In this document: one piece after another, positions 15,380 through 47,200 of the stretch
Numbering within the stretch: the first letter of the stretch is position 1
How the letters are laid out: every line of letters begins with the position of its first letter
Source: Chromera velia
Taxonomy: Eukaryota
Length of the DNA: 53,703 bases
Direction: 5' to 3'
Assembly (NCBI GenBank): GCA_018398765.1
Contig: JAHBMJ010000236.1
Location: 1 to 53,703, forward strand
Program-made: the position numbers and the translations under genes
The notes under the pieces: generated by a model
What the model saw: the letters and a program-made list of their open reading frames with translations, nothing else
Told to the model about the DNA's origin: nothing
Database searches by the model: none

Positions 15380-17222
15380 TCACGTGTTGCCCGCTGCTTT
15401 TTGCTTGCTACTGATCGCCATCGAGAGCCGCCTGCTGAGCGTCGCTTTGGTCTTCTGAAGTTCGTCTCGCTCTGACTGCACACACGCACGCACACACCAC
15501 ACGCATGCAGAGTGAATGGAGAAAGAAAGAGAAGAATCAAATCATAGAAAGAAAAGTAAGTCCTGCGTGGATGAAACCAGTCAGGCAACAGGAGACTCTT
15601 CTCTGAGTATCCCCACATGCAGAAATCAGCGTGTCCTTCCGTCTGGGTGTCTGTCTGATGGAGCGAACGAGTAACGAAACAAGGGAAGGGGGGAGGGAGT
15701 TCTCCCAGAGACAGCTAGGCATTGCGCCGCTGCAGAGAGGGCCGGGATCATCACGCGCTCCGATCCCTCATTGAATGCAACGAAGGAAGAGAGAGGAGTT
15801 CGGGGAAAGCAAAGAGGGCGTGACCAGGCGACACACGGTTTCGTACAAAGGGGTGTCGCTGACCTGTTTCTGTCCACACAAGTTAAGAGACAATCAAGGA
15901 GAAGCAGGGAGAGAGAGCAACACTTTCCTAAAATTAATGAGGAAAAATACGGGATAGTAATCTGGTGACAAAGAAAGAAAGGAATGCAACAACAGGAGGA
16001 AAGAGGAGAAAGGAAAAAAGAGACATACACATTCTGACCTTGACAGTCTCTAGTTCCTGTTCCACCTCTGAGATCTTCTTCACAAGTTCCTCCATTCCCT
16101 TCCTCGTCTGGTCACTGTTGCCGCTCGTCGCAAGGCTTGATCGAAGATCCTCGATCGTCCTCTGCATTCGAATATCCATCCATCCATCCATTCATCCATC
16201 ATGCATTCATTCATTCATTTATCCATTGATGAGACACAACTCGGGGGCGTGCCAGTCATTGTTTACACATCAATGCTCCAGGCAGATGCGCACATGGTCA
16301 CGCAAGAAATACAAAGATTAGGGCAAAAAGACGGACAGATACAAAGAGGGAGAGAACACGGGCAAGGCCGAGGAGAACAGAAGAAACCAGTCAAGGTCAT
16401 ATGCGCTCTGTGGGCAGGATACCGATTTGACGTGTTGCCCACAAAAAACAGAGGAGGATCACAGAAAGAGATCGAGAGCAAGCAAGCAAGCGAGAGAGAG
16501 GCGTGGACATAGAGAGAGAAACGAACCTTGAACCCCTCCTCGTTGTCCGCGTTGACCTTCTCCACCCGCACCTTCTCGTTCATCAACCTGCACGGTTGGA
16601 AAGCACCTTTGGCATTTTTTCATTGTTTTCTGCATACTTCCTGGTTTTCTCTGTATATCTACCACTGTTTTTATTTTCGTTCTCAACTCTTCTGGTCAAT
16701 CAACCGGCATGGACAACCGAGAGCAGAAGAGACAGGCGTGTGAGACCGGACAGCAGGATGCGTCCTCTTGTCCTTCAGTCTCAGATACGGAAGGACTCAC
16801 ACCCAGGAAGTCCGAACAAGAGGAAAGGTGGCAAGCAAGGGTGAAGGAAGGAAAAGCAGAAAGAAGATAACACGTTTACGATGGACACAGAGACAGAGAC
16901 AAAAAACAGACGAAACACACGGGCGCGTGAGGGTGAGGATATCATTTCTTTCTCCGTTTTGCACAGGAAGGAGAGGTGCTTTCCGTATGCTTTCTGTGAT
17001 GGACCAGCCTGCCCAAACTGATTTTTTGACACAACGACCCACCGGTCGTTCTGCTGCTTCACGTGGAAGAGTTGTTTCTCCATCGTGCTGATCGTCTCCT
17101 TCATGTCTGCATTCATTTATTCATTCATTCATTTGAAGAAAGGGAGAAGGAGAAAAGAGGGAGGGAGGAAGGGGATCAATCGACCAGCAGATCAGATCAC
17201 TCAATCCATCTCTCGGCAAAGA

Positions 17223-25663: not shown

Positions 25664-27133
25664 ATGCTTTCCTCGTTAAATTTTCTTGCAGCTCTGGTCA
25701 TTTGTGCGTGTCTGGCAAGCGCTGATATAGTAGGTGTGCGGGCAGATGCAGAGACGCCAAGTGAGGTCGCTGTCTCCCGTCTCTGTCCGGATTTAAAGTC
25801 TGGGCAAATTCCTTCGTTTGGGGAGGAGATGAGGATGTGCTGGTTTGGACATTTGAACAGTACCTGGACTTTTCTCAACCACGGGAGCTATGGTGCCCCT
25901 CCCCTCTCTGTGATTCTGGGACAGGAGGAGATTCAGAGACGGGCACGGTCGAATCCCGACGTTTGGTTTCGGGAGCGAGACGGACTAGACGGTCATGTGA
26001 ATGCAACTCTGGATGCCGTGTCTTCCTATCTGGATCCCTCTGGATCCAATCAATTGCGCGACTCTCTCTTTCTCGTAGAAGACGCGAGTTCCGGCATCAA
26101 CGCGGTGCTTCGTTCTTTCCCCTTTGAAAAAGGAAGCCGGGTGCTAACCACCAGTCTCTACTACCCAATGGTCAAGAACACCCTCAATTTTCTAGAAGAG
26201 CACAGAGGAATCGTCACAGATGTTGTGCAGCTCTCCTTCCCGACCACTGAAGATGCCATCATCGAAGCCGTCTCCCGTCATCTAGCCGTCTCCCGTCATC
26301 TAGCCGTCTCCGAGAGAAACGAAATTGTGTACACCGACTCCGGGAAAGCAGGCTCCAAGGAGTCTCCGCCTCCCTACGCCATGGCGGTCTTGGACCACAT
26401 CACTTCCTTCCCTGCAGTTCTCATGCCGGTATTTTCCCTTGTCCCCTTATTGAGGTCCCATGGGGTTGGACGGGTACTGATCGACGGTGCGCACACAATT
26501 GGGCAACTTGAGCCGTCGGTTGTTGCCTCAAGTATGAGGCTCTCTGATTGGTATGTCGCGAATGTGCACAAGTGGTTGAACGGTGCCTGGTCTGCTGCTG
26601 TGCTGTTTGCCTCAGAGACAGGTCAGGCCTCTCTGCACCCAGCAGTGATTTCCAATTTCTTCAGGCAAACGCTGGCGGCGGAGTTTCGGTATGTCGGCAC
26701 CAGGGACTATGCGCCGATTGCCTCTGTTGCCGTTGCCGTGCAAACAAGGTTGGCTGCCGGGGATTCAGCCTGGAGAGGTTACTCCTCAGATATATGTGAC
26801 AAGATGGAGAGCCACTTAAGGGCCCACTGGAGTATCTCCGATCCGAGACCGAAGCTCCAAGCACCGTCTCTTCGAATGGTTGGGCCCCTTCCCTTTCCCT
26901 TCGAGTGTGGGGGCGATCCAAGTTTTGTGATGGAGGCGTTGAGGAGACGAAATGTGGTCGCAGTGATACAGGCTGTTGGCACTCAGCCGTCTGCACAAGT
27001 TTGGCTGCGCCTTTCATGTCAGCCGTACAACGTTCTTGAAGACGCGGAGGTCACCTCACGAGCGTACGATGAGGTTGTGGGGGCGTGCACTGCGACTCCA
27101 AGTGAACGCCCGTTGAGCGTTGAAGAAGCATGA
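25664..27133 (+). CDS. Class-V PLP-dependent C-S lyase/epimerase family protein (L-cysteine desulfhydrase / Egt2 / isopenicillin-N-epimerase-like) with predicted signal peptide; no coding introns
   Basis: Motifs FLNHGSYGAPP, DHITS, IDGAH and NVHKW (PLP lysine); hydrophobic N-terminus MLSSLNFLAALVICACLASA; 18-bp in-frame duplication AVSRHL x2 at 26267-26302. Confidence 0.9.
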   Translation: MLSSLNFLAALVICACLASADIVGVRADAETPSEVAVSRLCPDLKSGQIPSFGEEMRMCWFGHLNSTWTFLNHGSYGAPPLSVILGQEEIQRRARSNPDVWFRERDGLDGHVNATLDAVSSYLDPSGSNQLRDSLFLVEDASSGINAVLRSFPFEKGSRVLTTSLYYPMVKNTLNFLEEHRGIVTDVVQLSFPTTEDAIIEAVSRHLAVSRHLAVSERNEIVYTDSGKAGSKESPPPYAMAVLDHITSFPAVLMPVFSLVPLLRSHGVGRVLIDGAHTIGQLEPSVVASSMRLSDWYVANVHKWLNGAWSAAVLFASETGQASLHPAVISNFFRQTLAAEFRYVGTRDYAPIASVAVAVQTRLAAGDSAWRGYSSDICDKMESHLRAHWSISDPRPKLQAPSLRMVGPLPFPFECGGDPSFVMEALRRRNVVAVIQAVGTQPSAQVWLRLSCQPYNVLEDAEVTSRAYDEVVGACTATPSERPLSVEEA

Positions 27134-27685: not shown

Positions 27686-27863
27686 CTTGAAAGTTCAAGC
27701 CGCATTTTTGGATAAGCTTGAAAGTCCGTGCCGCAGGCGCGGATCATTTGCGATGTCTTGAAAGCCAAAGCCGTATATCTGGACGGTGTCTTGAATGCCT
27801 ACGCCACAAGCGTAGACGTACGGTCTCTTGAAAAACGATGCCACAGATAGAGATCATCTTGAT
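27686..27863 (+). repeat. Array of CTTGAA-N7-GCCRYA motifs
   Basis: Copies at 27686, 27717, 27757, 27790 and 27827, partial at 27858; spacing 31-40 bp. Confidence 0.65.
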
Positions 27864-29662
27864 TATATTTTTTTAAGTGGCACTTAGGTTCAGAGAGGTT
27901 CTCTGCATTAAAAAAAAAAAACGAAACAATGCTGTTTTTTTTATATATATATATCAGCACAACAAGTGTTATTCTTCAAGCAGCACCTGCAACACTATGT
28001 AATTGTGGAGTCCTACCCTGTGACGCCACCCTTTGAGCCTTCGCATGCGCCGTGACTGAGTGAACCAGCGTGCCGCGCCATATTCCGCCGCCGTGCTTTG
28101 CTTCGTACGTGTTGCGCGCGTATCGATCGAAGTCGAGTCTGACCTTCGCAATGTTCGTATATTCAAACAACATGTCACTTGAGCAACAGATAGGATCGTT
28201 TAAGGCTAATGTCTGTTTATCATAAATCAGGAGTCTAAAACTCTAAGAGAGAGGAACAGAGAGAAGCATAAGTAGAAATTGTGCAATAATAGAATGAACC
28301 CAGCTGATTGGAATCCCAGATCGCGCTAGAACTTCAACTGATGTAGGGATGAACCTTCTGTAAACTGTTGCATAACTGAGTGTTGTAGATCTTCCCTAAG
28401 GTTCTTGTCCTCGCTTTACCTTCTGTCTGGATGCCATAAGATGGCCAGACAGGGGGGACAAAGCACAATACTCTTAAAAACATATAAATAACATCTTAGC
28501 AATACCCTAACAATACCTAAATAAGTATGATTTTTTGTGTACGTGTTTAACACTTTTTGATACTTTTTGTAACATATGTGAATATATGTGAACAACATCC
28601 TTACTAGTTGCTTCTAGTTGCTTCTTAAGTTCGCAGCACACTATTCGCTCCCTGAGAGGAAATGGTCTTTGGGGTCCAGAGGACTCTGAAACAGTCTGAA
28701 AGGGGGGCCGGCAATCGTAAAAGTGCGCGGCGCCTCGGTATTTTTCAGGGTTCCAGCCGGCCGGCCGGCCGGTGATCGCAGGGGCGCGCCCCTGGCCGGG
28801 CTTCGGGCTCCACCCCCTGGAGACCTTCATATACATAAATTAAAGCCCACGTACCATGCGTGTGCATAATCACGAGTACATCCAACCAGTTGGGTGAGTG
28901 CCTCGGGAGGCTATTTAGGGGGTCGGCCATAATTTGATTGCATGATGCAAACGCGTACCATCAGGGGCTTGGGTATATCTTGCCTGCAACCGGTAAGTAT
29001 CTAGGGCTACGCGGCAATGTGTGCAAAATATGCTTTTCGGGACCGCGTATGTGTATGCACGCTTATACAACTCCGTGCGAGTTACTTGAGGGGCACGTAT
29101 ATCATGAGGAGCGAATTAAGTGTGATCGCGGCTCCGGCAAGTTGCTTGAGGGGCATATTTTGGAATTAGGGCGACACCGTGATAGATAAACAAACAGACA
29201 GACACTGAGCCCCCCCCCCCAAAAATGAAAAAATGCTGTGGCCCCTAAGCTACGATATCTGTAGCCCAAACCAAAAGGAAAAAAGTAAAGGTGAGCCCTG
29301 TTAGTATAACACGGCATGTACACGGCATGTCTTTGAGGCCACGGTCAAAACTAGCCGATTTTGATTGATCGATCGAGATTTCGATTGACGTGTACGTTCG
29401 CAACACTACAGTGTAGAAAGTACTAAAGCAACAGAAAGTACAAACTGACCGTTTGTCTAGGGAAAGTACTAAAGCAACAGAACTTCTGAATATGTTGAGA
29501 AGGGATCTGTGAGCTTTAGACTTCAGGAACAGTCAGAGTTAATCCTAAAAGTAGTAAGAAAGATAGTAGGACAGATTGTATTCATATCAGTGTATCAGAC
29601 TCCTGTGTCATTATATCTGATTTTCTTCTCTTTCTTTTATCTCGGTCAGAAGCTTCTCCGCC

Positions 29663-30622
29663 ATGTCTGCTCCCTCTTATTACTCTGGCGTTCCTCTTTT
29701 CAGTCTGTACTGTGAAGATGGAATACATGAAGAACGACAGGTCTTTCGCGAGGTTCTCGAATCAGTCCTTGCGGTGCATTTGAAGGCTGCAGGAACTAAC
29801 GTTGACAACCGTAACTCTCATCTCCGTTCGATCATTCTTGTTCCTGGTCAGGGAAAAGATGGGCGTCCCAATACCCACTATATATAGATCACGAGGACAG
29901 CTTTAGACACTGCCACGGCTACCCGCACTCAGAACACCGATCCCGTCTGCGAGAAAGACGTCATTGACGTCATTGAAAAGAAGGTTCTTGAGGACGCTCT
30001 GCGTCTCTGTCTGGATCTTCTCGCTGCAGTTCATGCCATTGAACAGCGGGAGGATGAATCGACTAAAGATTTCTGTGAGCGTTTCTACAAGCTCATCGGC
30101 AGTCATGATGTCGTTGGCAAAGCCGCCGGAAAGACCTTAGGAGATGATGACAAGTTTATCCAGATTGTGCGCGCCTTGCAGGACGGTCTACATCAAGCTT
30201 TTGCCCGGTTTCTCAACGGATCGGAGAACTGGTCCGATGTGGACACCGCCTTTGACAAGGAGATCTCGGAGGAGGCGATTTCAAAGCTTTGATCCTCTTG
30301 TCAGACGGCAAGGGGCCATCTTGCAGCGTCGGCTTTTGGAGTTCAGAAGAAGTCCCGCCCGCACCAGTTCCCTGCTACAACATCTTCCTCCACGGGGGAG
30401 GGATACCCCGCTCTAGCCTGCGGAGCGTGTGGCTTTCCCGCAGAAATGGGAACGCACATCTGCCCTGTACGTGACAAGCAGTGAAACAAGTGCAGCAGCA
30501 TTGAACACTCCACATGGATGTGTCGTTCTCAGATGGGACACGACCAGAGGGGCGAGCGCGGGTCTCACTCGGCAACCAGCAAATCCACTACAACTTCTGA
30601 AGACGCTATGTGGCTCGCGTAA
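29663..30622 (+). pseudogene. gag: Array unit 1 gag, with stops and small deletions
   Basis: Near-identical to the intact unit 2 ORF; CAG>TAG stop at 29885-29887 plus further lesions. Confidence 0.85.
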
Positions 30623-31628
30623 GAGAGCAGTACGTATTGAGATAGAGACCGAAGGCTGAGGTTATACCTTCCGTTCAGATTTTGGTGTGACAGTCTGCCT
30701 GTCCGCAGAGTTAGGCAGGAGACAGAAAGAAGATCGATTGAGATTGAATGTTGAGTTCGACAATAAGAAAGTCTGACCACCCGGCAGAGTTTGGTGGCTG
30801 GTCGTCAAAAACTGTTTTCATCTTCTTGCGCGTTAGCGTCTGTGTGTGTATTTTTTTTTTCTGATATTTTGAATGCGTCGTTATCTTCCTCTCTCTTCCT
30901 TCGTCTTTGCACACAAGTTCAGCCAGCTTGTTGTGCTTGTTTTTGTGAAGGTGATGTGATGTTGACTGAGATCGGGGGGGCATGAGGCCTGTGTTTCTCT
31001 CTGATTAATTTCAACGTCTTTATGAAGCAGTTAGAGATGAGTGGCGCCAGAAAGTTTCTTTCATCAGCGTCAGCTTTTCTTCTACCTGCAAGTTAATGAC
31101 TTCGTGAGCGGGTGTGTAACTGCTGAAATGACGTTCCCATTACTTAGTGTCTGGACTTGCTGTCTCGGGTCGCCTTTTAAGGACCGCTAATGAGAATATC
31201 GTTTCTGTTGATTCATTTTTCTTGTGTTTGGACGGTTTGCAATCAAGCTTACAGTGAAACGCTTGATTGAGGGGGGAATGTTAGCACAACACGGCATGTA
31301 CACGGCATGTCTTTGGGGCCACGGTCAGAGCTAGCCGATTTTGATTGATCGATCGAGATTTCAATTGACGTGTACGTTTGCAACACTGCAGTGCAGAAAC
31401 CGAACTAACCGTTTGTTTAGAGAAAGTACTAAAGCAATAGAACTTCTGAATATATTGAGAAAGGATCAGATTTTGTGAGCTCTAGACTTTAGGAACAGTC
31501 AGAGTTGATCCTAGAAGTAGTAAAAAAGATAGTAGGACAGATTGTATTCATATCAGTATGTTAGACTCCTGTGTCAGTATATCTGATTTTCTTCTCTTTC
31601 CTTCATCTCGGTCAGAAGCTTCTCCGCC

Positions 31629-32579
31629 ATGTCTGTTCCCTTTTATTACTCTGGCGTTCCTCTTTTCAGTCTGTACTGTGAAGATGGAACACATAAAGAA
31701 TGGCAGGTCTTTCGCGAGGTTCTCGAATCAGTCCTTGCGGTGCATTTGAAGGCTGCGGGAACTAACGTTGACAACCGTAACTCTCGTCTCCGTTCGATCA
31801 TTCTTGTTGCCGGTCAGGGAAAGGATGGGTGTCCCAATACCCACTATATACAGATCGCAAGGACAGCTTTGGACACTGCCACGGCTGCCCACACTCAGAA
31901 TACCGATCCTGTCCGCGAGAAAGACGTCATTGACGTCATCGAAAAGAAGGTTCTTGAGGACGCTCTGCGTCTCCATCTAGATCTTCTCGCTGTGGTTCAT
32001 GCCATTGAACAGCGGGAGGACGAATCGACTAAAGATTTCTGCGAGCGTTTCTATAAGCTCATCGGCAGTTATGATGTTGTTGGCAAAGCCGCCGGAAAGA
32101 CCTTAGGAGATGATGACAAGTTTATCCAGATCGTGTGCGCCTTGCAGGACGGTCTGCGTCAAGCCTTTGCCCGGTTTCTCAACGGATCGGAGAACTGGTC
32201 TGATGTGGACGCCGCCCTTGACAAGGTGATCTCGGAGGAGGCGATTTCAAAGCCTCGATCCTCTTGTCAGACGGTAAGGGACCATCTTGCAGCATCAGCT
32301 TTTGGAGTTCAGAAGAAGTCCCGCCCGCACCAGTTCCCTGCTACAACATCTTCCTCCACGGGAAAGGAATACCCCGCTCTGGTCTGCGGAGCGTGTGGCT
32401 TTCCTGCAGAAATGGGAACGCACATCTGCCCTGCACATGATAAGCAGTGCAATAAGTGTAGCAGCATTGAGCACTCTGTACGGATGTGTCGTTCTCAGAT
32501 GGGACGCGACCAGAAAGGCGAGTGCGGGTCTCACTCGGCAACCGGCAAATCCGCTACAACTTCTGAAGACGCCATGTAG
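31629..32579 (+). CDS. gag: Array unit 2 Gag, open 316-aa frame with double zinc knuckle
   Basis: Capsid-type motif EQREDESTKDFCERFYKL; CGACG..HICPA..CNKCSSIEHSVRMC; ends 3 codons early via TGG>TAG. Confidence 0.85.
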   Translation: MSVPFYYSGVPLFSLYCEDGTHKEWQVFREVLESVLAVHLKAAGTNVDNRNSRLRSIILVAGQGKDGCPNTHYIQIARTALDTATAAHTQNTDPVREKDVIDVIEKKVLEDALRLHLDLLAVVHAIEQREDESTKDFCERFYKLIGSYDVVGKAAGKTLGDDDKFIQIVCALQDGLRQAFARFLNGSENWSDVDAALDKVISEEAISKPRSSCQTVRDHLAASAFGVQKKSRPHQFPATTSSSTGKEYPALVCGACGFPAEMGTHICPAHDKQCNKCSSIEHSVRMCRSQMGRDQKGECGSHSATGKSATTSEDAM

Positions 32580-33598
32580 CTCACATAAGAGAGCAGTGCA
32601 CATTGAGATAGAGACCGAAGGCTGAAGTTATACCTTCTGTTCAAATTTCGGTATGACAGTCTGCCTGTCCACAGAGTTAGGCAGGAGACAGAAAGAAGAT
32701 CGATTGAGATTGAATGTCGAGTTCGACAATAAGAAAGTCTGACCACCCGGCAGAGTTTGGTGGCTGGTCGTCAGAAACTGTTTTCATCTTTTTGTGCGTT
32801 AGCGTCTGTGTGTGTGTTTTTTTTTTTTTTCTGATATTTTGAATGCGTCGTTATCTTCCTCTCTCTTCCTTCGTCTTTGCACACAAGTTCAGCCAGCTTG
32901 TTGTGCTTGTTTTTGTGAAGGTGATGTGATGTTGACTGAGATCGGGGGGGCATGAGGCCTGTATTTCTCTCTGATTGATTTCAACGTCTTCATGAAGCAG
33001 TTAGAGATGAGTGGCGCCAGAAAGTTTCTTTTATCAGCGTCAGCTTTTCTTCTATCTATAAGTTAATGACTTCGTGAGCGGGTGTGTAACTGCTGAAATG
33101 ACGTTCCCATTACTTAGTGTCTGGACTTGCTGTCTTGGGTCGCCTTTTAAGGACGGCCAATGAGAATGTCGTTTCTGTCGATTCATTTTTCTTATGTTTG
33201 GACGGTTTGCAATCAAGCTTGCAGTGAAATGCTTGATTGAGGGGGGAATGTTAGCGCAACACGGCATGTACACGGCATGTCTTTGGAGCCACGGTCAGAG
33301 CTAGCCGATTTTGATTGATCGATCGAGATTTCGATTGACGTGTACGTTTGCAACACTGCAGTACAGAAACCGAACTGACCGTTTGTCTAAGGAAAGTACC
33401 AAAGCAACAGAACTTTTGAATATATTGAGAAAGGATCAGATTTTGTGAGCTCTAGACTTTAGGAACAGTCAGAGTTGATCCTAGAAGTAGTAAAAAAGAT
33501 AGTAGGACAGATTGTATTCATATCAGTGTGTTAGACTCCTGTGTCAGTATATCTGATTTTCTTCTCTTTCCTTCATCTCGGTCAGAAGCTTCTCCACC

Positions 33599-34549
33599 AT
33601 GTCTGCTCCCTCTTATTACTCTGGCGTTCCTCTTTTCAGTCTGTACTGTGAAGATGGAACACATAAAGAATGGCAGGTCTTTCGCGAGGTTCTCGAATCA
33701 GTCCTTGCGGTGCATTTGAAGGCTGCGGGAACTAACGTTGACAACCGTAACTCTCGTCTCCGTTCGATCATTCTTGTTGCCGGTCAGGGAAAGGATGGGT
33801 GTCCCAATACCCACTATATACAGATCGCAAGGACAGTTTTGGACACTGCCACGGCTGCCCACACTCAGAACACCGATCTTGTCCGCGAGAAAGACGTCAT
33901 TGACGTCATCAAAAAGAAGGTTCTTGAGGACGCTCTGCGTCTCCATTTAGATCTTCTCGCTGTGGTTCATGCCATTGAACAGCGGGAGGACGAATCGACT
34001 AAAGATTTCTGTGAGCGTTTCTACAAGCTCATCGGTAGTTATGATATTGTTGGCAAAGCCGCCGGAAAGACCTTAGGAGATGATGACAAGTTTATCTAGA
34101 TTGTGTGCGCCTTGCAGGACGGTCTGCGTCAAGCCTTTACCCGGTTTCTCAACGGATCGAAGAACTGGTCCGATGTGGACGCCGCCCTTGACAAGGTGAT
34201 CTCGGAGGAGGTAATTTCAAAGCCTCGATCCTCTTGTCAGACGGCAAGGGACCATCTTGCAGCATCGGCTTTTGGAGTTCAGAAGAAGTCCCGCCCGTAC
34301 CAGTTCCCTGCTACAACATCTTCCTCCATGGGAGAGGGATACCCCGCTCTGGTCTGCGGAGTGTATGGCTTTCCTGCAGAAATGGGAATGCACATCTGCC
34401 CTGCACATGATAAGCAGTGCAATAAGTGCAGCAGCATTGGGCACTCTGTACGGATGTGTCGTTCTTAGATGGGACGTGACCAGAAAGGCGAGTGCGGGTC
34501 TCACTCGGCAACCGGCAAATCCGCTACAACTTCTGAAGACGCCATGTAG
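33599..34549 (+). pseudogene. gag: Array unit 3 gag, two CAG>TAG stops
   Basis: Stops at 34097-34099 and 34466-34468 where other copies have CAG. Confidence 0.85.
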
Positions 34550-35560
34550 CTCACGTAAGAGAGCAGTGCGCATTGAGATAGAGACCGAAGGCTGAGGTTA
34601 TACCTTCTGTTCAAATTTCGGTGTGACAGTCTGCCTGTCCGCAGAGTTAGGCAGGAGACAGAAAGAAGATCGATTGAGATTGAATGTTGAGTTCGACAAT
34701 AAGAAAGTCTGACCACCCGGCAGAGTTTGGTGGCTAGTCTTGAAAAACTGTTTTCATCTTCTTGTGCGTTAGCGTCTGTGTGTGTGTGTTTTTTTTTTCT
34801 GATATTTTGAATGCGTCGTTATCTTCCTCTCTCTTCCTTCATCTTTGCACACAAGTTCAGCCAGCTTGTTGTGCTTGTTTTTGTGAAGGTGATGTGATGT
34901 TGACTGAGATCGGGGGGGCATGAGGCCTGTATTTCTCTCTGATTGATTTCAACGTCTTTATGAAGCAGTTAGAGATGAGTGGCGCCAGAAAGTTTCTTTT
35001 ATCAGCGTCAGCTTTTCTTCTATCTATAAGTTAATGACTTCGTGAGCGGGTGTGTAACTGCTGAAATGACGTTCCTATTACTTAGTGTCTGGACTTGCTG
35101 TCTTGGGTCGCCTTTTAAGGACGGCCAATGAGAATGTCGTTTCTGTCGATTCATTTTTCTTGTGTTTGGACGGTTTGCAATCAAGCTTACAGTGAAACGC
35201 TTGATTGAGGGGGGAATGTTAGCGCAACACGGCATGTACACGGCATGTCTTTGGGGCCACGGTCAGAGCTAGCCGATTTTGATTGATCGATCGAGATTTC
35301 GATTGACGTGTACGTTTGCAACACTGCAGTACAGAAACCGAACTGACCGTTTGTCTAGGCAAAGTACCAAAGCAACAGAACTTCTGAATATATTGAGAAG
35401 GGATCTGTGAGCTTTAGACTTCAGGAACAGTCAGAGTTGATCCTAGAAGTAGTAAAAAAGATAGTAGGACAGATTGTATTCATATCAGTGTGTCAGACTC
35501 CTGTGTCATTATATCTGATTTTCTTCTCTTTCCTTCATCTCGGTCAGAAGCTTCTCTGCT

Positions 35561-36526
35561 ATGTCTGCTCCCTCTCATTACTCTGGCGTTCCTCTTTTCA
35601 GTCTGTACTGTGAAGATGGAACACATGAAGAATGGCAAGTCTTTCGCGAGGTTCTCGAATCAGTCCTTGCGGTGCATTTGAAGGCTGCGGGAACTAACGT
35701 TGACAACCGTAACTCTCGTCTCCGTTCGATCATTCTTGTTGCCGGTCAGAGAAAGAATGGACGTCCCAATACCCACTACATGTAGATCGTGAGGACAGCT
35801 TTGGACACTGCCACGGCTGCCCGCACAGTGACTCAGAACACCGATCCCGTCTGCGAGAAAGATGTCATTGACGCCATCGAAAAGAAGGTTCTTGAGGACG
35901 CTCTACATCTCCGTCTGGATCTTCTCGCTGCGGTTCATGCCATTGAACAGCGGGAGGACGAATCGACTAAGGATTTCTGCGAGTGTTTCTACAAGCTCAT
36001 CGGTAGTTATGATATCGTTAGCAAAGCCGCCGGAAAGACCATAGGAGATGATGACAAGTTTATTCAGATCGTGCGCGCCTTGCAGGACGGTCTGCGTCAA
36101 GCCTTTGCCTGGTTTCTCAACGGATCGGAGAACTGGTCCGATGTGGATGCCGCCCTTGACAAGGTGATCTCGGAGGAGGCGATTTCAAAGCCTCGATCCT
36201 CTTGTCAGACGGCAAGGGGCCATCTTGCAGCGTCGGCTTTTGGAGTTCAGAAGAAATCCCGCCCGCACCAGTTCCCTGCTACAACATCTTCCTCCACGGG
36301 AAAGGGATACTCCGCTCTGGTCTGCGGAGCGTATGGCTTTCCCGCAGAAATGGGAACACACATCTGCCCTGCACGTGACAAGCAGTGCAACAAGTGCAGC
36401 AGCATTGGGCACTCTGCACGGATGTGTCGTTCTCAGATGGGACACGACCAGAGGGGCGAGCGCAGGTCTCACTCGGCAACCAGCAAATCCACTACAACTT
36501 CTGAAGACGCCATGTGGCTCGCGTAA
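35561..36526 (+). pseudogene. gag: Array unit 4 gag, one CAG>TAG stop
   Basis: Stop at 35783-35785; otherwise full length with an intact CNKCSSIGHSARMC knuckle. Confidence 0.85.
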
Positions 36527-37094
36527 GAGAGCAGTGCGCATTGAGATAGAGACCGAAGGCTGAGGTTATACTTTCCGTTCAGATTTTGGTGTGACAGTCT
36601 GCCTGTCCGCAGAGTTAGGCAGGAGACAGAAAGAAGATCGATTGAGATTGAATGTTGAGTTCGACAATAAGAAAGTCTGACCACCCGGCAGAGTTTGGTG
36701 GCTGGTCGTCAGAAACTGTTTTCATCTTCTTGCGCGTTAGCGTCTGTGTGTGTGTTTTTTTTTTTTCTGATATTTTGAATGCGTCGTTATCTTCCTCTCT
36801 CTTCCTTCGTCTTTGCACACAAGTTCAGCCAGCTTGTTGTGCTTGTTTTTGTGAAGGTGATGTGATGTTGACTGAGATCGGGGGGGCATGAGGCCTGTGT
36901 TTCTCTCTGATTGATTTCAACGTCTTTATGAAGCAGTTAGAGATGAGTGGCGCCAGAAAGTTTCTTTTATCAGCGTCAGCTTTTCTTCTACCTGCAAGTT
37001 AATGACTTCGTGAGCGGGTGTGTAACTACTGAAATGACGCTCCCATTACTTAGTGTCTGGACTTGCTGTCTTGGGTCGCCTTTTAAGGACGGCN

Positions 37095-38095
37095 TGCGTC
37101 AAGCCTTTGCCTGGTTTCTCAACGGATCGGAGAACTGGTCCGATGTGGATGCCGCCCTTGACAAGGTGATCTCGGAGGAGGCGATTTCAAAGCCTCGATC
37201 CTCTTGTCAGACGGCAAGGGGCCATCTTGCAGCGTCGGCTTTTGGAGTTCAGAAGAAATCCCGCCCGCACCAGTTCCCTGCTACAACATCTTCCTCCACG
37301 GGAAAGGGATACTCCGCTCTGGTCTGCGGAGCGTATGGCTTTCCCGCAGAAATGGGAACACACATCTGCCCTGCACGTGACAAGCAGTGCAACAAGTGCA
37401 GCAGCATTGGGCACTCTGCACGGATGTGTCGTTCTCAGATGGGACACGACCAGAGGGGCGAGCGCAGGTCTCACTCGGCAACCAGCAAATCCACTACAAC
37501 TTCTGAAGACGCCATGTGGCTCGCGTAAGAGAGCAGTGCGCATTGAGATAGAGACCGAAGGCTGAGGTTATACTTTCCGTTCAGATTTTGGTGTGACAGT
37601 CTGCCTGTCCGCAGAGTTAGGCAGGAGACAGAAAGAAGATCGATTGAGATTGAATGTTGAGTTCGACAATAAGAAAGTCTGACCACCCGGCAGAGTTTGG
37701 TGGCTGGTCGTCAGAAACTGTTTTCATCTTCTTGCGCGTTAGCGTCTGTGTGTGTGTTTTTTTTTTTTCTGATATTTTGAATGCGTCGTTATCTTCCTCT
37801 CTCTTCCTTCGTCTTTGCACACAAGTTCAGCCAGCTTGTTGTGCTTGTTTTTGTGAAGGTGATGTGATGTTGACTGAGATCGGGGGGGCATGAGGCCTGT
37901 GTTTCTCTCTGATTGATTTCAACGTCTTTATGAAGCAGTTAGAGATGAGTGGCGCCAGAAAGTTTCTTTTATCAGCGTCAGCTTTTCTTCTACCTGCAAG
38001 TTAATGACTTCGTGAGCGGGTGTGTAACTACTGAAATGACGCTCCCATTACTTAGTGTCTGGACTTGCTGTCTTGGGTCGCCTTTTAAGGACGGC
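37095..38095 (+). other. Probable assembly overlap duplication
   Basis: Appears identical to 36093-37093 and is separated from it by a single N at 37094. Confidence 0.85.
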
Positions 38096-39679
38096 TAATG
38101 AGAATATCGTTTCTGTCGATTCATTTTTCTTGTATTTGGACGGTTTGCAATCAAGCTTACAGTGAAACGCTTGATTGAGGGGGGAATGTTAGCGCAACAC
38201 GGCATGTACACGGCATGTCTTTGGGGCCACGGTCAGAGCTAGCCGATTTTGATTGATCGATCGAGATTTCGATTGACGTGTACGTTTGCAACACTGCAGT
38301 ATAGAAAGCGAACTGACCGTTTGTCTAAGGAAAGTACCAAAGCAACAGAACTTCTGAATATATTGAGAAGGGGTCTGTGAGCTCTAGGCTTCAGGAACAG
38401 TCAGAGTTGATCCTAGAAGTAGTAAAAAAGATAGTAGGACAGATTGTATTCATAAGCCCCGCCCCTTACACTGAATTTCGCACGCGCGCCACCTATGTAC
38501 TTCCCTATATTTCGGGTCGCAAACGCCTTACGGGACCGCACAGTAAAAATTTTGTGCATGCATGATTGAAATGATTAAATTTGACCGCCTCTGAGGTCTG
38601 AATTCAGATGCGCTATCAGATGCGCTGTTTAACAGCTTTGTCAGACTTTGTAATGTGGATGAGCAGATGAGGGAAATCTTCAACTTAACGACGGACGTGG
38701 GCATGACAGTGAGTGAGAGCTAGGTAAAAACACTACTCTTCAAACGCCGTCTCCGCGCGTCTTAATCTGTCTGTTGTGAGTTTTATATTGTTTCCGGACT
38801 AAGCAGATCTCCCTTTTGGTCAGGTCCCCACCTGTCCTGCTCCAAGGAAAGGTGAGTGGTCAATCTGTTCCTGTCTTCATATTCCTCCTGTTTATTTAAC
38901 TCCATAAATGAAAGGGAGACAGTTAGAGACAATCTGGTAGTAAGCGCATACGACTCTTTACCGTGAGCGAGCTGCTGAACCCGGGCGCCTATGGCTTTCC
39001 TCTAGCTCTATTCACCCTGTTTGAGCCTGCCATGCAATATATGTGATTTCCTGTCTGTACTGACTTTGGGCTGTGAATCCTTCTATCTTTGAGTAAATGG
39101 GTGAATGAGTAGGCGTGTTAGGTTTCCGTGTCCATCTACATGTCTGTCTTAAAGTATCCCCCCGTTGCTGTTCATAATACTCGTTTCGATGCACGGTGCT
39201 CCTGTAGACAAATTTTTCCGGTATTTATGTGCGTGGATGCCAGTCTGTGACGTGGTTTTATCTTCGTGTGCTCTGTTCGGCTTTCTCCGTTCCACATTTT
39301 TCTGTGTCTCTTAGGCTATGTGTATATTGAAATTCGTCTCCTTTGAGTGACCGGGTGCATGTTGATTGAGTGCAGGAGTGCTGAGACTCTGAGGAGAAGT
39401 GCAAGGGCGAAAGACTGACTGACTGACTGATTAACTGACTGACTAACCCACTAATCGACTGGTAGCGACAGACAGTCACAGTGACTCACTATTTGTCTGT
39501 CTTCTAGGTCTGTCTTGCTGTCTATAAAAAATTCCCCTCCCCTGAAATTAAAATATGGCCTGTCTGGCAGTGCCTGCCTGCCCACCTGCTTGCCTGCCTA
39601 TGTATTTGTCTGCTTCTCCATATGTTTCTCTGTATGACATTGTATGTAGGTATATGCGTATGTATATGAGGCCAGGAGG

Positions 39680-40961: not shown

Positions 40962-43900
40962 TATGTTAACTAAAGACTATTGTGCAGTGACTATCAATTT
41001 TTGGTAAGAGATTCAGAAGGTCTGATAGTATATATACAAACGTACAGATACTTGCAAGTCATACAAGTCTATCAAATCGATTGGCTAAATTGATTTGGAT
41101 GCGCGTGCTCAAATTATAAATCGATTCTATCAGTCGATCGATCGATTCAATTGAATATACAAATTCGATTCTGTATTGCATACAACGAGAACGGAAATTG
41201 AATACGATGAGACGGCATTGTTGCACTATTGCTTCACGCATGCGCGATATGATGTATGAACATTTTCAAGGCTACGGCATATCCGAAAATACGCGAACGC
41301 ATGCATGCATACCGATACAGATGGATAGAGGCCACGCGCGGAACTGTTTAGATATCATGCATGGCTAGTAGGGTGCTACAGCATGCACACGGCCTATAGA
41401 GCATCACAGCAAAAGAAGTCTTGGCTCAACAGATCGCCCCCCAAGTATCGTTGCAATGATACGAATAATGCTTGACTGACATTCATAACACAGACAGACA
41501 TAATGGATGCACATGCAAGACAGGTTTACTTCACTGAAGCATTAACGACCAAAAGATGACCAAAGGCTTTCAATCTTTGGCGAAGGACCAGATCAATCAC
41601 AATAAAAAACAAGGAAACGAAGCTTGCGAGAAAGAATTGAACAACAAGCATGAAATTGCATGAAATGCTTTGATTCACTTTCTTGTTATATGGGAGTAAA
41701 AGTGAAACGAAGAGAAGAAAAAGAAAAGAACAGAATCATGAAGACATGCAAAGAGGAAGATGAAGAGAAAGAAACACACAAACAAAGAACGCTCAATCAC
41801 TGTCAGCTTGCCCTTTCTTCTTTAATTCTTCTTTCAATTCACAGTCTCACTCAGACAGAAGACACTTCGTCATTCTATCTGCTCTCATCTCATCTGTTGG
41901 GACACGCACGAACTCTGCATTCATTTCCTTTCTGCATTGCAGTACAGACTCAAGCATGCCTTGCTAACTGGGATCAGAACGGGCATGATCAGAGACTAGC
42001 TGTGCAAGCAGAGGTTGAGAGTCAAGAATGAACTGAACTGTTAGCTTGGCTTTCTACATCCTCTCTACAAAAAAAAAGTACTTAAAGGCAGCTTTCACCG
42101 CATCGCGCAGAGCAATCAGTTCAGCCGAAGTTGTTGAGCTAACTTTCACTTTCAAAGAACGTGACTTCCAGAAAACAGTGTTACATTCTTCCTTGCTTGG
42201 CAGAGAAGCGTCTTTCTCCAACAACTGAATCTCAAATCCTATCTGTGCAGAATATTTTCTGAGAGAAAAAGATACATCTGACCAGATACGAAGGAGAGGG
42301 ACCGACAACAGACGGACAAAGACAAGAGGCTTTGCATGAAGCTGTGCATGTACAATCATACGACGAAGGGTGTCAATCAATCGGTCAGTCGGTTTAGTAT
42401 TGAATCGTCAAACGAATGAGAATGCGAATGCGTAGGCAGGCAGAGTATAACACACCCATCCTAACTTGCCCATCCATAACTGATACTGAGAGACAAGCGA
42501 GGGATTGACAGATTCATTGAGAGAGGGAGGGAAAAAATCAGACCTGCGAAGAGCTCTCTTTCCTTTGTCCCCCAGCTCCGTCAGACATTCCAGCGCTTGA
42601 AGGTAATCAGTCTGGTTGATGATCAGCATGTCATTGATAATTCTAACAGTCTGTCCGACGTAGGTATGCGGAGCACCATCACTGAGCAGCTCGGAAGGGT
42701 CCATGTCTACCTCCTTCCTGATGGCATAGAGAATGCCCATCGAATCCTTTCCCCATGCCCAGAGATCATCGACGTACATGATCAGAATGGCATCGATCTC
42801 TCCTGAAGGATCTCTGCGAACGAGGATAGACTCGCTTGCCTCCTTGAAACCAAACTTCTTCGCCTTGGACTTAAACCACTTGGTGTAGACGTGTGGACTC
42901 TACTTCAATCCGTAGAGAGCATTGTTGGCACTTGCAATCGCCCCTGGCATGTACTCCGGAATCTCTTCAGTCACGACAGCGGGAATCTCGGTGGGGAGCT
43001 TGATGTAGACTTTCTTTCCCACATCCATGGGGGCCTGTAAGAAAGCTATGGACACATCAGACTTAGCGCACGCGAAGGAGTTGCTAAGGGCGTAGATGAT
43101 GGCTGCTCTGACGAGGCCAGGATCGGGAGTGCCAGAGAAGGTCTCGATCACTGTGGAGTCTCGATGACCCATGACAACGAGGCATGTTTTAGGAACTCGG
43201 CGGTTGCCCTTAAGCTTCCACGTTAGGACAAAGCGCATCGGAATGGCCTTGTCGAAGTCAGGAGGCATCTCTCCCTTCTGCATGACGTAGATAGCAAGGT
43301 TGTTTTTGTACTTGCGCATCTCAGTGAGGATCGACTCATCGAAATCACCTTTTGCTATCTCCTCCTTGGTCGTAGGTACGTGACCTTTCAGGACTTTGAC
43401 TGCCCGAGTGGAGGCAGCCATCTCAACGAGCTCGCAGAGGTCAGTAATCTTCACTTCCCTTTCCTGATCTGGAGGGAAGATCCAGTCCCCATCGACTACC
43501 TCTGGCTCGTCCATGTGTTTATCTGCAGATGGAGCGGCTTCAAAAGGAGAGACATTCATTTCCCCGCCCCCTGAAGCCGCGAAGGGCTCAGAGGTGGGTA
43601 GATGGAGAGGAGGCTCACCGTCCTCAAGAGGGAAAGAAGAAAAAATATTTCCTTTCGGCAGACGAACAATTTCTCCCCACTTCCATCCTTTCATTCCATC
43701 AAGCTTTGTCAAGAAAGAGACATCAATGGATACACGCATGACTCGAACAAGGATAGCAGAGAAAGTGGGACCTCCACGCTCAAAAGAAGCAAAGACACTG
43801 ACACCTGGCTGAAGTTCAATGGATGTCTGTTCTCCGTTTCTGTGTGCATGCGACTCGTCTTCCTGTAGACTATCACCACTGACAACCTCCGTTAACATAG

Positions 43901-46900
43901 GGACAGATGGCAGTGGAAGCAGATGAGAGGCAGCAGAGGAGTGAACAGAACAAACGTAGCGAGGATGCAGATGCAAAGCTGTCCATCTGTTTTCTCTTTT
44001 CACAAGAACAGAGCAGGAAGACTCATTCCACTCACCCCCGAAAATGCCTACTTCATCCCTTGGAAACAATGATTTCATTCGAGGCTTTGGATCAAAAGCA
44101 AGCACGGGCATGCCAACGAGAAGTGAGTGCATGGGGGGAGGACGGCGATAGATAGCTTTGAACGGTGACTCACCCAACACTGAATGTACAGTGGTGTTCA
44201 GAGCATAGCACACACCCGGAAGGAGTGTGGGCCAGGCAGAATGAGGGAACTTATACTGATCGAGCAACTTTTTCATCACCTTCTTGATCTCTCTGTTGGC
44301 CCTCTCGATGATGCCCTGAACTGCCGGAGTGTACGCGGGCCCAGTCAGATGTGTGATGCCTCGTTCTCGACAGAACTTCTTGTACTCGTGGTTGACAAAC
44401 TCCCCACCGTTGTCTGTGCAGATATAGGTGGGCGCCCCCCACTTGGCAGTCCAGGCAATGAGGTGATCGAGGGCGGCATCCTTGGTAGTGAGTGCCATGA
44501 GGGACTTGAAGCGCTTGCTGCTGTCAACGATGACAGAGAGGTAGACGAATCCACCTATCCCTTTGTCGTACATCTCCGTCAAGTCCTGAAAGATCTTGTA
44601 GTTGAAGGGATGTTTGTTTTGCTTAGAGTCGTCTCGACTCCCAATCTGTCGCTTCACCGCATTGACTGCAGGACAGACTGGACACGCACGCACAGCCTTC
44701 TCACAGTTACTCTTCTTGCCGATGTCGTACCCCCTTTCCTTGAGGGTGCGATACATGGTTCGAGCAGAAGGATGACCAAGGAACTTATGAATCTCGGAGA
44801 GGGTATGCTGAGAGAGATCGGGCTCCTCTCTCTGTGCGTTGACTTCAGAAGCACCCTGCTTTGTTTGCTTAGAGTCTGTATTCTCTGTGTTCGAGTCGTT
44901 GTTGTTTGCCTCGTTCTCGTGAGCAGAATCAATAACAAAAGACTGTCACTGACTCAGCTCTTCAGCATGTCGGTGTAGAAGAGCACGGAGATGAGCTCTG
45001 TCTGCATCAACGTTGCGGTTAGGGACCCATATGGGGAACACGGTGAGTCCGTTGATGATGGGGCCTCTCAAGCGTTTAGAAAAACCGGGAATGGTCTTAA
45101 CAGGGGTGACAAAGTGGTCGGCGTTCTTGCAGTATCCAACAGGCGCAGGGACGAGAGCTCTGCGTCCGTTACCCTTGATCATTGCTTTTTCCCACACTGT
45201 GTAGACGGACCAGCCTGTCGCGTCCATAGTAGGAATGGTGAGAACAACGTCCTTGTAAATGGTCAGCTTGCCCTTCTTCTTGCCACTGAGGGTCTCTACG
45301 GTATTGAACGATGTCGTGTTCTTCACGGACTTCACCACGAACCGTCGGAAAGATTCGGGGAAGAGACCTTTTGTGCACCCGGAGTTGACGACGAGGTGCA
45401 ATCCCTCCAAGAGCTTCTGGCTAGCTCATATAGCAGAGCCGCATGTCAGCGCTGCACAGGCGTGACGGGAGGGAGAAAAGACAGAGTGGTGACTCTGGTC
45501 TTTCTAAAGAGAAGAAGGCAAAACTGACTTTCTGACTCTGCCAAAAGCTAAGTCTAAAGCAATTATCTCGGCTTCAGGAGTGCTGCTGATCAGTGTCTTG
45601 CAAGTCAGACTTTTCCATTCAGTTTCAGTGTAAGAGGGGAAACCAAGCAAAGTACCGCAGCTTTGAAGTCTATCAGACTATGCGGCACACTCTTTCCGAC
45701 TCTGACCTATATGTGGTTGCGTATCAGCCCCTTCGGTCATACAGATCCACTCGGTGTACAAGTCAGCTGCATCAGCCTTTTCATGTTCATGATCATCCGC
45801 CAAGTCAGCGAAGCAGACGTTCTTCTTGCCTTAGCCGACCAGTGGTTCTTCTTGCCACAGTTGTAGCACTTGTCGTCCGGTTTGACCGGGCACTCATGAG
45901 GCTGAGTCCGGTTGCAACGGTAGCATCTCTTCTTGTTGTCCTCCTTCCTGACCTTGTCGGCGGGGAAGCGGTTCGGTTGGAACTTTGACTTAGTCCCTCC
46001 CTGCAGACCACGACGACGACGATGATCTGTAACACCAGCCATCTGCCCTTGCTGTGCGGGCGGCTGTAGAGAAGAAGAAGCCGAACTCAAGATGGACTCC
46101 TGCTTCGCGAGCACATCGAGACGGTCGAGGATACTGGTGACATCCTCGGCAGCGAGGCTATCAACTAGTCTATGCTTGTGCTTGTCGGCAACGGAAGCAA
46201 CCAAGGTAAGAAATTAGTCGCTGTCACTGGGGTCATAGTTGACTTCCTTGTAGTCGTGCATCAGTTGCTTCCAGGCCTCTATATGTTGATGGAGGTTGTG
46301 GTTGTAATGTTGCCTGAAGGCCTTGAAACGCTTCTGCACATCGAGGCGCCTTTTTGTAATATCCGGCAGGTAATGTTTCTGCAAGGCATCAAGGATCTCT
46401 TTGCGTGCAGGGGGAGCGTCAGGGTCAGTCACAACTGACTCAATAACCTCCATAAACTCGGCGTTTGGCCCTCTAGCAGTGCCTGCGTGGATGATGAGGC
46501 CGAGCTCTGCCTGCTTCTTCATGGGCGCATCGGTGAACGTCATCGTTGCTAAGTTCAACATGATCTCAAGAACCTTCCTCCAGGATTGGAAGCGTCCCTT
46601 TCCATAGAGAGAGAAGAGAGGGATGTTTTAGAATGGAAGGTTAGAGGAGTGCCGATTCGCCATGGTCTTGCGCAATAGTTGGAAGGTCAACGAAGGAAGG
46701 AGAAAGGAATCAAAGGTCTGCACACACTGATATGTTAATTAAAGACTATTGTGCAGTGACTATCAATTGTTAGCAAGAGATTCAGAAGGTCTGATAGTAT
46801 ATATACAAACGTACAGACACTTGCAAGTCATACAAGTCTATCAAATCGATTGGCTAAATTGATTTGGATGCGCGTGCTCAAATTATAAATCGATTCTGTC

Positions 46901-47200
46901 AGTCGATCGATCGATTTAATCGAATATACAAATTCGATTCTGTATTGCATACAACGAGAACGGAAAGTGAATACGATGAGACGGCATTGTTGCACTATTG
47001 CTTCACGCATGCGCGATATGATGTATGAACATTCTTAAGGCTACGGCATGTCCGAAAATATGCGAACGCATGCATGCACACCGATACAGATGGACGGGGG
47101 CCATGCGCGGAACTGTTCAGATATCATGCAGGGCCAATAGGGTGCTACAGTATGCACACGGCCTATAGAACATCACAGCAAAAGAAGTCTCGGCTCAACA
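40962..47200 (-). mobile_element. Full-length, decayed Ty1/copia LTR retrotransposon
   Basis: 470-bp LTRs at 46731-47200 (5') and 40962-41431 (3'); TSD CGTGT/TGTGT (40957-40961, 47201-47205); purine-rich TTGGGGGGCGATC before the 3' LTR; order gag-PR-IN-RT-RH. Confidence 0.95.
41834..46663 (-). pseudogene. Copia gag-pol with stops and frameshifts
   Basis: ATG 46663. Knuckles CYRCNRTQPHECP and CYNCGKKNH; protease LVVNSGCT; integrase HKFLGHP..CPVC, TDNGGEF, QGIIERAN; RT AFLQA, LYGLK, YVDD; RNase H SSTTSAELIAL, RADRMTK. Confidence 0.93.

What the first reader, a model, noticed from the sequence alone, without database searches (positions are those of the whole stretch)
29299..38454. Tandem array of a Gag-only LTR retroelement (LTR-gag-LTR-gag-...) inside a single TSD
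Seen: ~1970-bp units, each with a 268-288-bp LTR, a short leader, a ~319-codon gag with double Zn knuckle, ~650 bp of apparently non-coding DNA and a copia-type PPT (TTGAGGGGGGAA|TGTT). Adjacent units share one LTR, there is no PR/IN/RT/RH, and only the outer ends carry the TSD AGCCC. Known: Gag-only LTR elements (TR-GAG) and LTR-sharing tandem TRIM arrays are described mainly from plants. Inference: a non-autonomous family that supplies its own capsid, borrows Pol, and amplifies as multimers. I do not know of one described in this kind of protist.
Basis: partly seen in the sequence, partly recalled or inferred. Interest (0 to 1): 0.85.

Follow-up and report, generated by a model that had tools for sequence, protein, structure and literature searches.

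The report
Tandem Gag-only jumping gene in alga
Four decayed head-to-tail copies of a jumping gene that encodes only a predicted shell protein sit in one insertion site of what is likely the alga Chromera; it likely borrows its copying enzymes from a relative, likely starts copying from a fragment of valine tRNA, and its newest copy was likely added through an RNA copy, which makes it an unusual form of a known kind of element.

Summary
The array is real: five LTRs, four gag-bearing units, one 5-bp TSD, no pol. Corrections: the apparent fifth part-unit is a 1001-bp identical overlap across a scaffold N (likely artefact); three of four gags carry premature stops; units differ 3-6%, mostly by C>T/G>A changes with no detectable selection on gag. 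It is a Copia derivative: its Gag is homologous to that of a pol-bearing Copia 2.5 kb away (25%, E 2e-13), which shares TGTT..CATA ends and the primer site. Units 2 and 3 are sisters, so the array grew stepwise, not as one multimer; the LTR between them switches ancestry inside the inferred R region, as a cDNA-made LTR would (one event). Public contigs show other LTR ends with different flanks and pol-less colinear copies. Gag-only elements and LTR-sharing tandems are each well known; the scan noted related pol-less, tandem and half-tRNA elements in other genomes, none with this sequence. New variant of a known kind.

The parts
29294..29298 (.). left target-site duplication AGCCC
   Evidence: sequence
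29299..29586 (+). LTR1 (288 bp, carries a 20-bp internal duplication); TG..TA ends
29471..29505 (+). inferred R region (alignment columns 173 to about 207; 35369 to about 35403 in LTR4)
   Evidence: one contig of run X4 begins here with loose 5' letters and another ends here in a run of A; weak, contigs only
29587..29601 (+). PBS of unit 1, complement of tRNA-Val(AAC) anticodon arm, one G>A change
29663..30622 (+). gag of unit 1, 319 codons, premature stops at codons 75, 210, 274
30623..31266 (+). non-coding tail of unit 1; 30859-31058 is unusually conserved among units
31267..31278 (+). polypurine tract before LTR2
31279..31552 (+). LTR2 (shared); left part shares 3 states with LTR1, right part identical to LTR3
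31553..31567 (+). PBS of unit 2
31629..32579 (+). gag of unit 2, the only open copy (316 aa)
   Evidence: homology to neighbouring Copia Gag; Gag-like in ESM Atlas
33237..33248 (+). polypurine tract before LTR3
33249..33522 (+). LTR3 (shared), chimeric: LTR4/5-like up to 33400, LTR2-like from 33432; switch within 33401-33431
33523..33537 (+). PBS of unit 3, exact complement of unmodified tRNA-Val(AAC) nt 29-43
33599..34549 (+). gag of unit 3, premature stops at codons 167 and 290; sister of unit 2
35205..35216 (+). polypurine tract before LTR4
35217..35484 (+). LTR4 (shared)
35485..35499 (+). PBS of unit 4, with C opposite the wobble position (fits inosine-34)
35561..36526 (+). gag of unit 4, 321 codons, premature stop near codon 75, 6-nt insertion
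37094..38095 (.). single N followed by a 1001-bp exact repeat of 36093-37093: likely scaffold-join artefact
38175..38186 (+). polypurine tract before LTR5
38187..38454 (+). LTR5 (3' terminal)
38455..38459 (.). right target-site duplication AGCCC
   Evidence: sequence
40962..47200 (-). neighbouring decayed full-length Copia (470-bp LTRs at 46731-47200 and 40962-41431; gag, protease, integrase, RT, RNase H order) with the same TGTT..CATA ends, a PBS starting with the same 9 bases and a homologous Gag: shows the lineage, not the direct parent

Best explanation
This is a four-unit, LTR-sharing tandem, inside one target-site duplication, of a small pol-less element whose Gag is homologous to that of a neighbouring Copia; it likely moves as a non-autonomous family by borrowing Pol, likely primes reverse transcription with a 5' fragment of tRNA-Val(IAC), and the array grew in steps, the last of them likely by recombination of a cDNA copy into the locus. 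Shown: anatomy, Copia-lineage Gag, complementarity of the PBS to tRNA-Val nt 29-43, sister relation of units 2 and 3, chimeric LTR3, C>T/G>A decay. Inferred: a unit-length RNA runs from R to R, is packaged, and is copied by the Pol of an unidentified autonomous Copia of the same lineage; integrase made the first insertion and the dispersed copies; a cDNA or one-LTR circle from the ancestor of units 2/3 (LTR = U3 of its downstream LTR plus R-U5 of its upstream LTR) recombined into the array. My odds by step: family lacks pol 0.7; tRNA-Val fragment is the primer 0.8; last duplication went through RNA 0.55; Gag of the array is now under selection 0.15.
For: Anatomy. Gag: tblastn to the neighbour's Gag 25% over 286 columns, E 2e-13; ESM Atlas nearest clusters are zinc-knuckle/retrotransposon Gag (best 0.94) and 4 of 10 structure rows are named copia-type Gag PF14223, TM 0.43-0.45. 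Neighbour has integrase (rve E 7.6e-11) before RT (RVT_2 E 0.0016, under the cut-off). PBS: 67 of 118 metagenome loci holding the unit-3 15-mer are tRNA-Val(AAC) genes with the 15-mer as anticodon arm; units 1 and 4 have C at the wobble position; with inosine modelled as G the 6 best of 302 windows of unit 4 all hold the PBS (-35.7 to -34.5 against a median of -21.2 kcal/mol, tRNA of another organism); the neighbour keeps the first 9 bases. Family: DNA contigs leave the reference at the exact LTR start with two different flanks and at the LTR end with a third; a gene model from elsewhere, Cvel_12850, is 84-86% identical to each unit's Gag; a DNA contig with 37 differences in 374 bases runs colinearly across the gag stop into the tail in both DNA runs, and overlapping X4 contigs (99 differences in 1251) cover gag, tail, PPT and LTR without a skip and end in a run of A inside the LTR. 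Stepwise growth: 42 of 53 two-against-two sites join units 2 and 3. Breakpoint: LTR2 and LTR3 differ at 11 of 170 left columns and 0 of 104 right columns, including a shared 6-bp insertion; 0 of 3 informative sites up to column 203 but 42 of 50 beyond join units 2 and 3 (Fisher p 0.007); the 31-nt switch interval is 1.6% of a unit and 12% of an LTR and lies in the inferred R.
Against: No whole genome was available, so the family was seen only through capped contig tables (15 of 18 loose-end rows shown), and no two outside flanks form a TSD pair. Loose ends at 35539, 36057 and 36991 were not followed and could belong to a relative with another interior, pol included. The RNA route rests on one breakpoint and on an R region read from two contigs of one run whose RNA nature is the tool's guess; LTR3-left is as close to LTR5 as to LTR4 (4 of 170 each), and LTR3 and LTR4 share no derived left-hand state against LTR5, so a DNA-level exchange or conversion fits too. 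Three of four gags are broken, and the X4 copy has a 2-base insertion before the knuckles (may be a read error). Pfam finds no family in the open Gag; Foldseek gives no match at E 0.001, the top rows being retroviral capsids at E 0.18 and weaker on a pLDDT-46 model. The host's own tRNA-Val was not seen; the neighbour's PBS needs a one-base bulge. No nucleotide similarity to the neighbour beyond shuffles for LTR or tail, so it is not the parent.
Confidence: 0.6

Rival explanations
1. The array grew only at the DNA level, by unequal exchange or gene conversion between LTRs or units after one insertion; the position of the LTR3 switch in R is chance.
For: One TSD around all units; near-neutral decay; the duplication followed about 32 C>T/G>A changes on the unit-2/3 stem; unequal recombination is the usual explanation for TSD-keeping tandems in sugar beet (PMC13570524, passages); chance of this position is 12% if exchange is confined to LTRs.
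Against: With three units already present the exchange could fall anywhere in about 1970 bp (1.6% for this interval); LTR2-left shares three states with LTR1, which simple LTR1 x LTR5 exchange does not give.
Confidence: 0.35
2. The element is a local or recent deletion derivative of a pol-bearing element of the same family that is still in the genome, not a Gag-only family in its own right.
For: The neighbour shows that the lineage has gag, a stop-rich linker and pol; the first 300 bases of the tail align end to end, though not significantly (17 of 200 shuffles as good), with that linker; unexplained loose ends at 35539 and 36991.
Against: No shown loose end between the gag stop (36526) and 36991; copies 8-10% diverged are colinear across the gag stop; no Gag-Pol-length relative among 3362 candidates (weak); no relative between 89% and 29% identity in the 50%-cluster library.
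Confidence: 0.2
3. The whole array was reverse-transcribed as a multimer (repeated strand transfers or read-through RNA) and inserted once by integrase.
For: One TSD; a junction switching in R is also what repeated strand transfer gives; proposed for Cassandra (PMC7215508, passages) and left open for rice tandems (PMC11899658, Discussion); units 1, 2/3 and 4 are roughly star-like.
Against: Units 2 and 3 share 42 sites, mostly C>T/G>A decay, and differ by 3.0% against 5.0-6.4% for the other pairs; this needs either a later duplication or donors already related in just this way.
Confidence: 0.12

Closest known systems
TR-GAG elements of plants (Chaparro et al. 2015, PMC4350172; abstract and passages read)
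   Same: Under 4 kb, LTRs, PBS, PPT, 5-bp TSD, one Gag ORF, no protease, integrase, RT or RNase H, more than one copy.
   Different: Host is likely an alveolate; ends TG..TA; internal-tRNA PBS instead of a 3'-end tRNA-Leu site; copies here are tandem ('tandem' has 0 occurrences in that paper's text) and mostly broken.
LTR-sharing tandems: Cassandra/TRIM arrays (PMC7215508, passages), sugar beet non-autonomous families (PMC13570524, passages and section 42: 97 tandem copies in 38 families, 73 with TSD; 29 families with GAG/PROT), rice tandems (PMC11899658, abstract and Discussion)
   Same: Alternating LTR and internal region inside one TSD.
   Different: Gag-coding unit, 3-6% diverged units whose order of origin can be read, and a junction LTR that switches ancestry in the inferred R.
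cDNA recombination into resident elements: Tf1 integrase-independent insertion, Ty1 and Ty5 tandems (PMC11042837, abstract and passages; the Ty1/Ty5 papers seen only as its references)
   Same: Tandems separated by a single LTR, hybrid within that LTR.
   Different: Shown there by experiment in yeasts with pol-coding elements; here inferred from one old junction of a pol-less element.
Half-tRNA-primed Copia lineages: Osser, Bryco, Gymco-II (half tRNA-Met) and Bianca (half tRNA-Ile with inosine; gag and pol apart in 55%) (PMC6317226, passages and Additional file 5); Drosophila copia (PMC10275265, passage)
   Same: PBS complements a tRNA anticodon arm; inosine footprint as in Bianca; the neighbour has a stop-rich gag-pol linker.
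   Different: The tRNA is Val(AAC), and pairing runs to the end of the anticodon stem (nt 43). No tree was built, so kinship with Bianca is untested.

Membership tests
TR-GAG | length under 4 kb with LTRs, PBS and PPT | tested here: met
   unit with both LTRs about 2.24 kb
TR-GAG | single ORF with similarity to Gag | tested here: met
   Pfam blank, fold search weak; open in 1 of 4 units
TR-GAG | no protease, integrase, RT or RNase H | tested here: met
   no ORF of 100 aa in tails, six frames closed, no tblastx hit to the neighbour's pol
TR-GAG | at least two copies, dispersed with different 5-bp TSDs | tested here: inconclusive
   three outside LTR ends with different flanks and one outside gene model, but no matching TSD pair; no genome
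TR-GAG | TG..CA termini (as in the type elements) | tested here: not met
   TG..TA at the TSD here and in the neighbour; so filed as TR-GAG-like, not as a member
Ty1/Copia lineage | integrase before RT in pol; RT phylogeny | tested here: inconclusive
   the element has no pol; the order is met in the neighbour whose Gag, ends and PBS it shares; no RT tree built
Half-tRNA-primed Copia | PBS next to the 5' LTR complementary to a tRNA anticodon arm | tested here: met
   67 of 118 loci, tRNAs of other organisms
Half-tRNA-primed Copia | the tRNA fragment is shown to prime reverse transcription | not testable with these tools
   needs particle RNA or cDNA ends
TRIM / tandem-array TRIM | no coding domain, short | tested here: not met
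   951-966-bp gag in every unit
Tandem LTR retrotransposon | units share internal LTRs, one TSD outside | tested here: met

The most novel reading that the evidence does not exclude
Chromerid algae host a Copia lineage that primes on a tRNA-Val(IAC) fragment cut after the anticodon stem (nt 43) and integrates with TG..TA ends, and a Gag-only satellite of it builds LTR-sharing arrays by recombining its own cDNA back into the locus, leaving junction LTRs that switch ancestry exactly at R: a sequence signature that can decide, genome-wide, between RNA and DNA routes to tandem LTR elements.
Probability: 0.4. Interest if true: 0.6.

Novelty: new variant of a known kind. Interest (0 to 1): 0.42.

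Why it matters
How LTR-sharing tandems arise is stated as open (PMC11899658, Discussion). Here heavy C>T decay marks every unit, so the order of events and one breakpoint can be read, and the breakpoint falls where an RNA intermediate would put it; the same test can be run on any tandem with diverged units. The tRNA-Val anticodon-arm PBS adds a primer to the short list of half-tRNA primers and implies a cut at a different place. It extends Gag-only elements to a likely alveolate host. None of this is a new kind of system.

Tried and rejected
Whole genome: none held. dN/dS was computed out of frame and discarded; redone (pN/pS 0.40-0.55 with equal rates looks like selection, but 0.64-0.89 with transition weighting and no excess over a C>T/G>A null). 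Self-priming: best LTR complement of the leader was 7 bases. Pol remnants in the tail: none. Splicing out of pol, suggested by a GT donor-like motif over the gag stop: no skip joint in any of 4 runs; dropped. Depth in the laid runs is no copy number and was not used; nor was the absence of cover over the unique flank in X3 and X4. No RNA holder on record was listed. Relatives in metagenome contigs: 134 pattern matches, 0 confirmed. Longer Gag-Pol relatives: 0 of 3362 candidates. PDB by sequence: only knuckle proteins, best E 0.018. Single-sequence fold pLDDT 41, not searched; the VIA-align searches could not be run. Five non-tRNA loci where the 15-mer follows CA could not be extended; among 51 non-tRNA loci 8 have CA and 9 TA before it, no clear signal. 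Empty site: flanks have no other copy in the window. No tRNA in the window. Loose-end letters at 35325, 35539, 36057 and 36991 were not searched. Literature: 10 searches; none listed a paper on Chromera LTR elements, a half tRNA-Val primer or Chromera methylation by title or start of abstract; most listings were not opened, the library lacks most subscription papers, Repbase was not available, and the per-element PBS table of PMC6317226 (Additional file 1) does not seem to be among the 17,418 characters searched.
Full report
Observation. The region 29299-38454 holds five LTRs of 288, 274, 274, 268 and 268 bp, with AGCCC on both outer sides and nowhere else at an LTR end. The right end reads CATA before the duplication, so the termini are TG..TA. 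Each internal region is a 76-base leader, a gag of 316-321 codons, about 650 non-coding bases and a purine tract. The window's only N is at 37094; the 1001 bases before it recur unchanged after it, while real units differ by 3.0-6.4%. I read this as a scaffold join and count four units; further near-identical copies of unit 4 hidden there are not excluded.

The protein. Only unit 2 is open; units 1, 3 and 4 have 3, 2 and 1 premature stops. Pfam finds nothing in the open copy and a sub-threshold knuckle in the unit-4 piece (E 0.007). The ESM Atlas places it among knuckle and retrotransposon Gag clusters (best 0.94, but 145-157 shared features, under the 170 that usually marks the same family), and 4 of 10 structure rows are named copia-type Gag. 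My models were poor (pLDDT 41 and 46); Foldseek gave no match at E 0.001, with retroviral capsids on top. The firmest evidence is local: a decayed full-length element at 47200-40962 on the minus strand has gag, a protease-like motif, integrase (E 7.6e-11), RT (RVT_2 E 0.0016) and an RNase H-like end in Copia order, and its Gag aligns with the array's at 25% over 286 columns, E 2e-13. It has the same TGTT..CATA ends, a 4-of-5 TSD, a similar purine tract and a PBS with the same first 9 bases. Its LTR and linker show no nucleotide similarity to the array beyond shuffles, so it marks the lineage, not the parent. Of 8 hits to a profile of these Gags, 5 are named Chromera velia and the other 3 are the window's own sequences; a gene model of that species stitches units 3 and 4 together (Cvel_15990). 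The host is therefore likely Chromera velia.

The primer site. The 15 bases after each LTR do not start with TGG. From memory I suspected tRNA-Val and tested it: of 118 metagenome loci returned for the unit-3 15-mer (a scan of 6 of 64 parts), 67 are tRNA-Val(AAC) genes by ARAGORN, with the 15-mer complementary to nt 29-43, the anticodon arm through the end of its stem. Units 1 and 4 carry C where units 2 and 3 carry T opposite the wobble base; C is what copying of inosine-34 gives (established chemistry; the same logic is given for Bianca in PMC6317226, passage), and T fits the C>T decay on the unit-2/3 stem. With another organism's tRNA and inosine modelled as G, the 6 best of 302 windows all contain the PBS. 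The plant survey lists only half tRNA-Met and half tRNA-Ile; searches listed no paper on a half tRNA-Val primer. The host's own tRNA was not seen, and priming is inferred.

Is it a family? No genome was held, so I laid contigs of 4 of the 8 listed runs. In the two DNA runs, contigs leave the reference at the LTR start with two different flanks (35215, 35217) and at the LTR end with a third (35486); none pairs as a TSD; 15 of 18 loose-end rows were shown. Others leave at 35325, 35539, 36057 and 36991 and were not followed. A contig with 37 differences in 374 bases crosses the gag stop into the tail colinearly in both runs, and its counts against unit 1 match none of units 2-4. Cvel_12850 is a Gag piece 84-86% identical to each unit. 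In X3, three pieces match unit 4 with 0 differences; in X4, overlapping contigs about 8% from unit 4 cover leader, gag, tail, PPT and LTR without a skip, one ending in a run of A near 35396-35403 and one starting at 35369 with loose letters that I recall as a library adapter. Both runs are RNA only by the tool's guess, and the X4 copy has 6- and 2-base insertions in gag. This fits a small dispersed pol-less family with a unit-length transcript, without proving it.

History of the array. Of 192 variable columns, 139 are private to one unit, and 111 of these are C>T or G>A, enriched before A and G, as from cytosine deamination; the cause was not tested. In gag 44 of 113 changes are synonymous against 0.35 expected from such changes at random (p 0.20-0.23): no sign of selection. 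Unit 1 has 59 private changes, unit 4 has 30. Units 2 and 3 share 42 of 53 two-against-two sites, 32 of them C>T/G>A on their stem, so their ancestor decayed before it was duplicated, and the four units were not inserted at once from one template. LTR3 is chimeric: it differs from LTR2 at 11 of 170 left columns and 0 of 104 right columns, and from LTR4 at 4 of 170 left columns; informative sites switch between columns 172 and 204 (Fisher p 0.007). The X4 contig ends put R at columns 173 to about 207. A cDNA-made LTR takes U3 from the downstream LTR and R-U5 from the upstream one (established mechanism), which is this pattern; recombination of such a cDNA or its one-LTR circle into the locus gives the present order. 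Unequal exchange would hit that interval 1.6% of the time over a unit, or 12% if confined to LTRs. It is one event, LTR3-left is equally close to LTR5, and conversion can mimic it, so I put the RNA route at 0.55. The duplicated ancestor had an open gag (unit 3's stops are private), which fits but is not significant. LTR1 and LTR2 share three left-hand states that I cannot explain with confidence.

Comparison. TR-GAG is defined by size under 4 kb, LTR, PBS, PPT, Gag and no enzymes (PMC4350172, abstract and passages); this element meets those points, differs in its ends, and dispersed TSDs are inconclusive. LTR-sharing tandems within one TSD are common in plants (PMC13570524, PMC11899658, PMC7215508) and occur in yeasts, bivalves and flies (PMC11042837); cDNA recombination as their source is shown for Tf1. 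A TR-GAG has been seen to transpose (PMC8704663, passages). Earlier notes of this scan describe pol-less, tandem and half-tRNA-Ser elements in other genomes (unchecked), and none like this protein.

Verdict. Real, partly mis-counted, mostly decayed; a TR-GAG-like Copia derivative in tandem. The new parts are the likely host group, the tRNA-Val anticodon-arm PBS with TG..TA ends shared by the lineage, and a junction that points to an RNA route. New variant of a known kind; interest 0.42.

Noticed in passing
window 40962-47200 (-): Decayed full-length Copia; LTRs differ at about 25 of 470 sites; 3 stops in the first 109 codons of the gag-pol linker against 2 in the next 840, so gag and pol may be separate frames as in Bianca.
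   Followed up: partly
window 30859-31058 (and equivalents): A 200-base part of the tail has 4 variable sites against 16.6 expected from context rates (P 0.008 over all windows): a cis-acting signal, a conversion tract or an unmethylated patch.
   Followed up: partly
P0013, P0014, P0020; window 45752-45741 (-); 36512-36526: A third Chromera Gag family (24-29% to the array) ends its frame at WIC; the neighbour has EWIC and the array MWLA-stop at the matching place, so the array's gag stop may be ancestral rather than made by pol loss.
   Followed up: partly
P0018 (Cvel_15990): A 477-aa database protein is an automatic gene model joining gag pieces of units 3 and 4; likely spurious.
   Followed up: yes
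window about 8567-14448 (+): Broken Ty3/Gypsy-type element (RVT_1 E 2.6e-30, Integrase_H2C2 E 3e-17); no direct repeat found in 5500-16000.
   Followed up: no
window 27800-28495 and 28844-29298: Flanking DNA draws very many contigs in both DNA runs: the array sits in a high-copy repeat of unknown kind.
   Followed up: no
window 25664-27133 (+): 489-aa ORF with an N-terminal hydrophobic stretch and motifs that look, from memory, like a class V aminotransferase / isopenicillin N epimerase; Pfam gave no family.
   Followed up: no
L016, L041, L052, L054, L097 and L057, L078: Non-tRNA metagenome loci in which the same 15-mer directly follows ACAACA or TTTCA, like LTR-PBS junctions; may be other elements with a tRNA-Val arm PBS; records not held.
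   Followed up: partly
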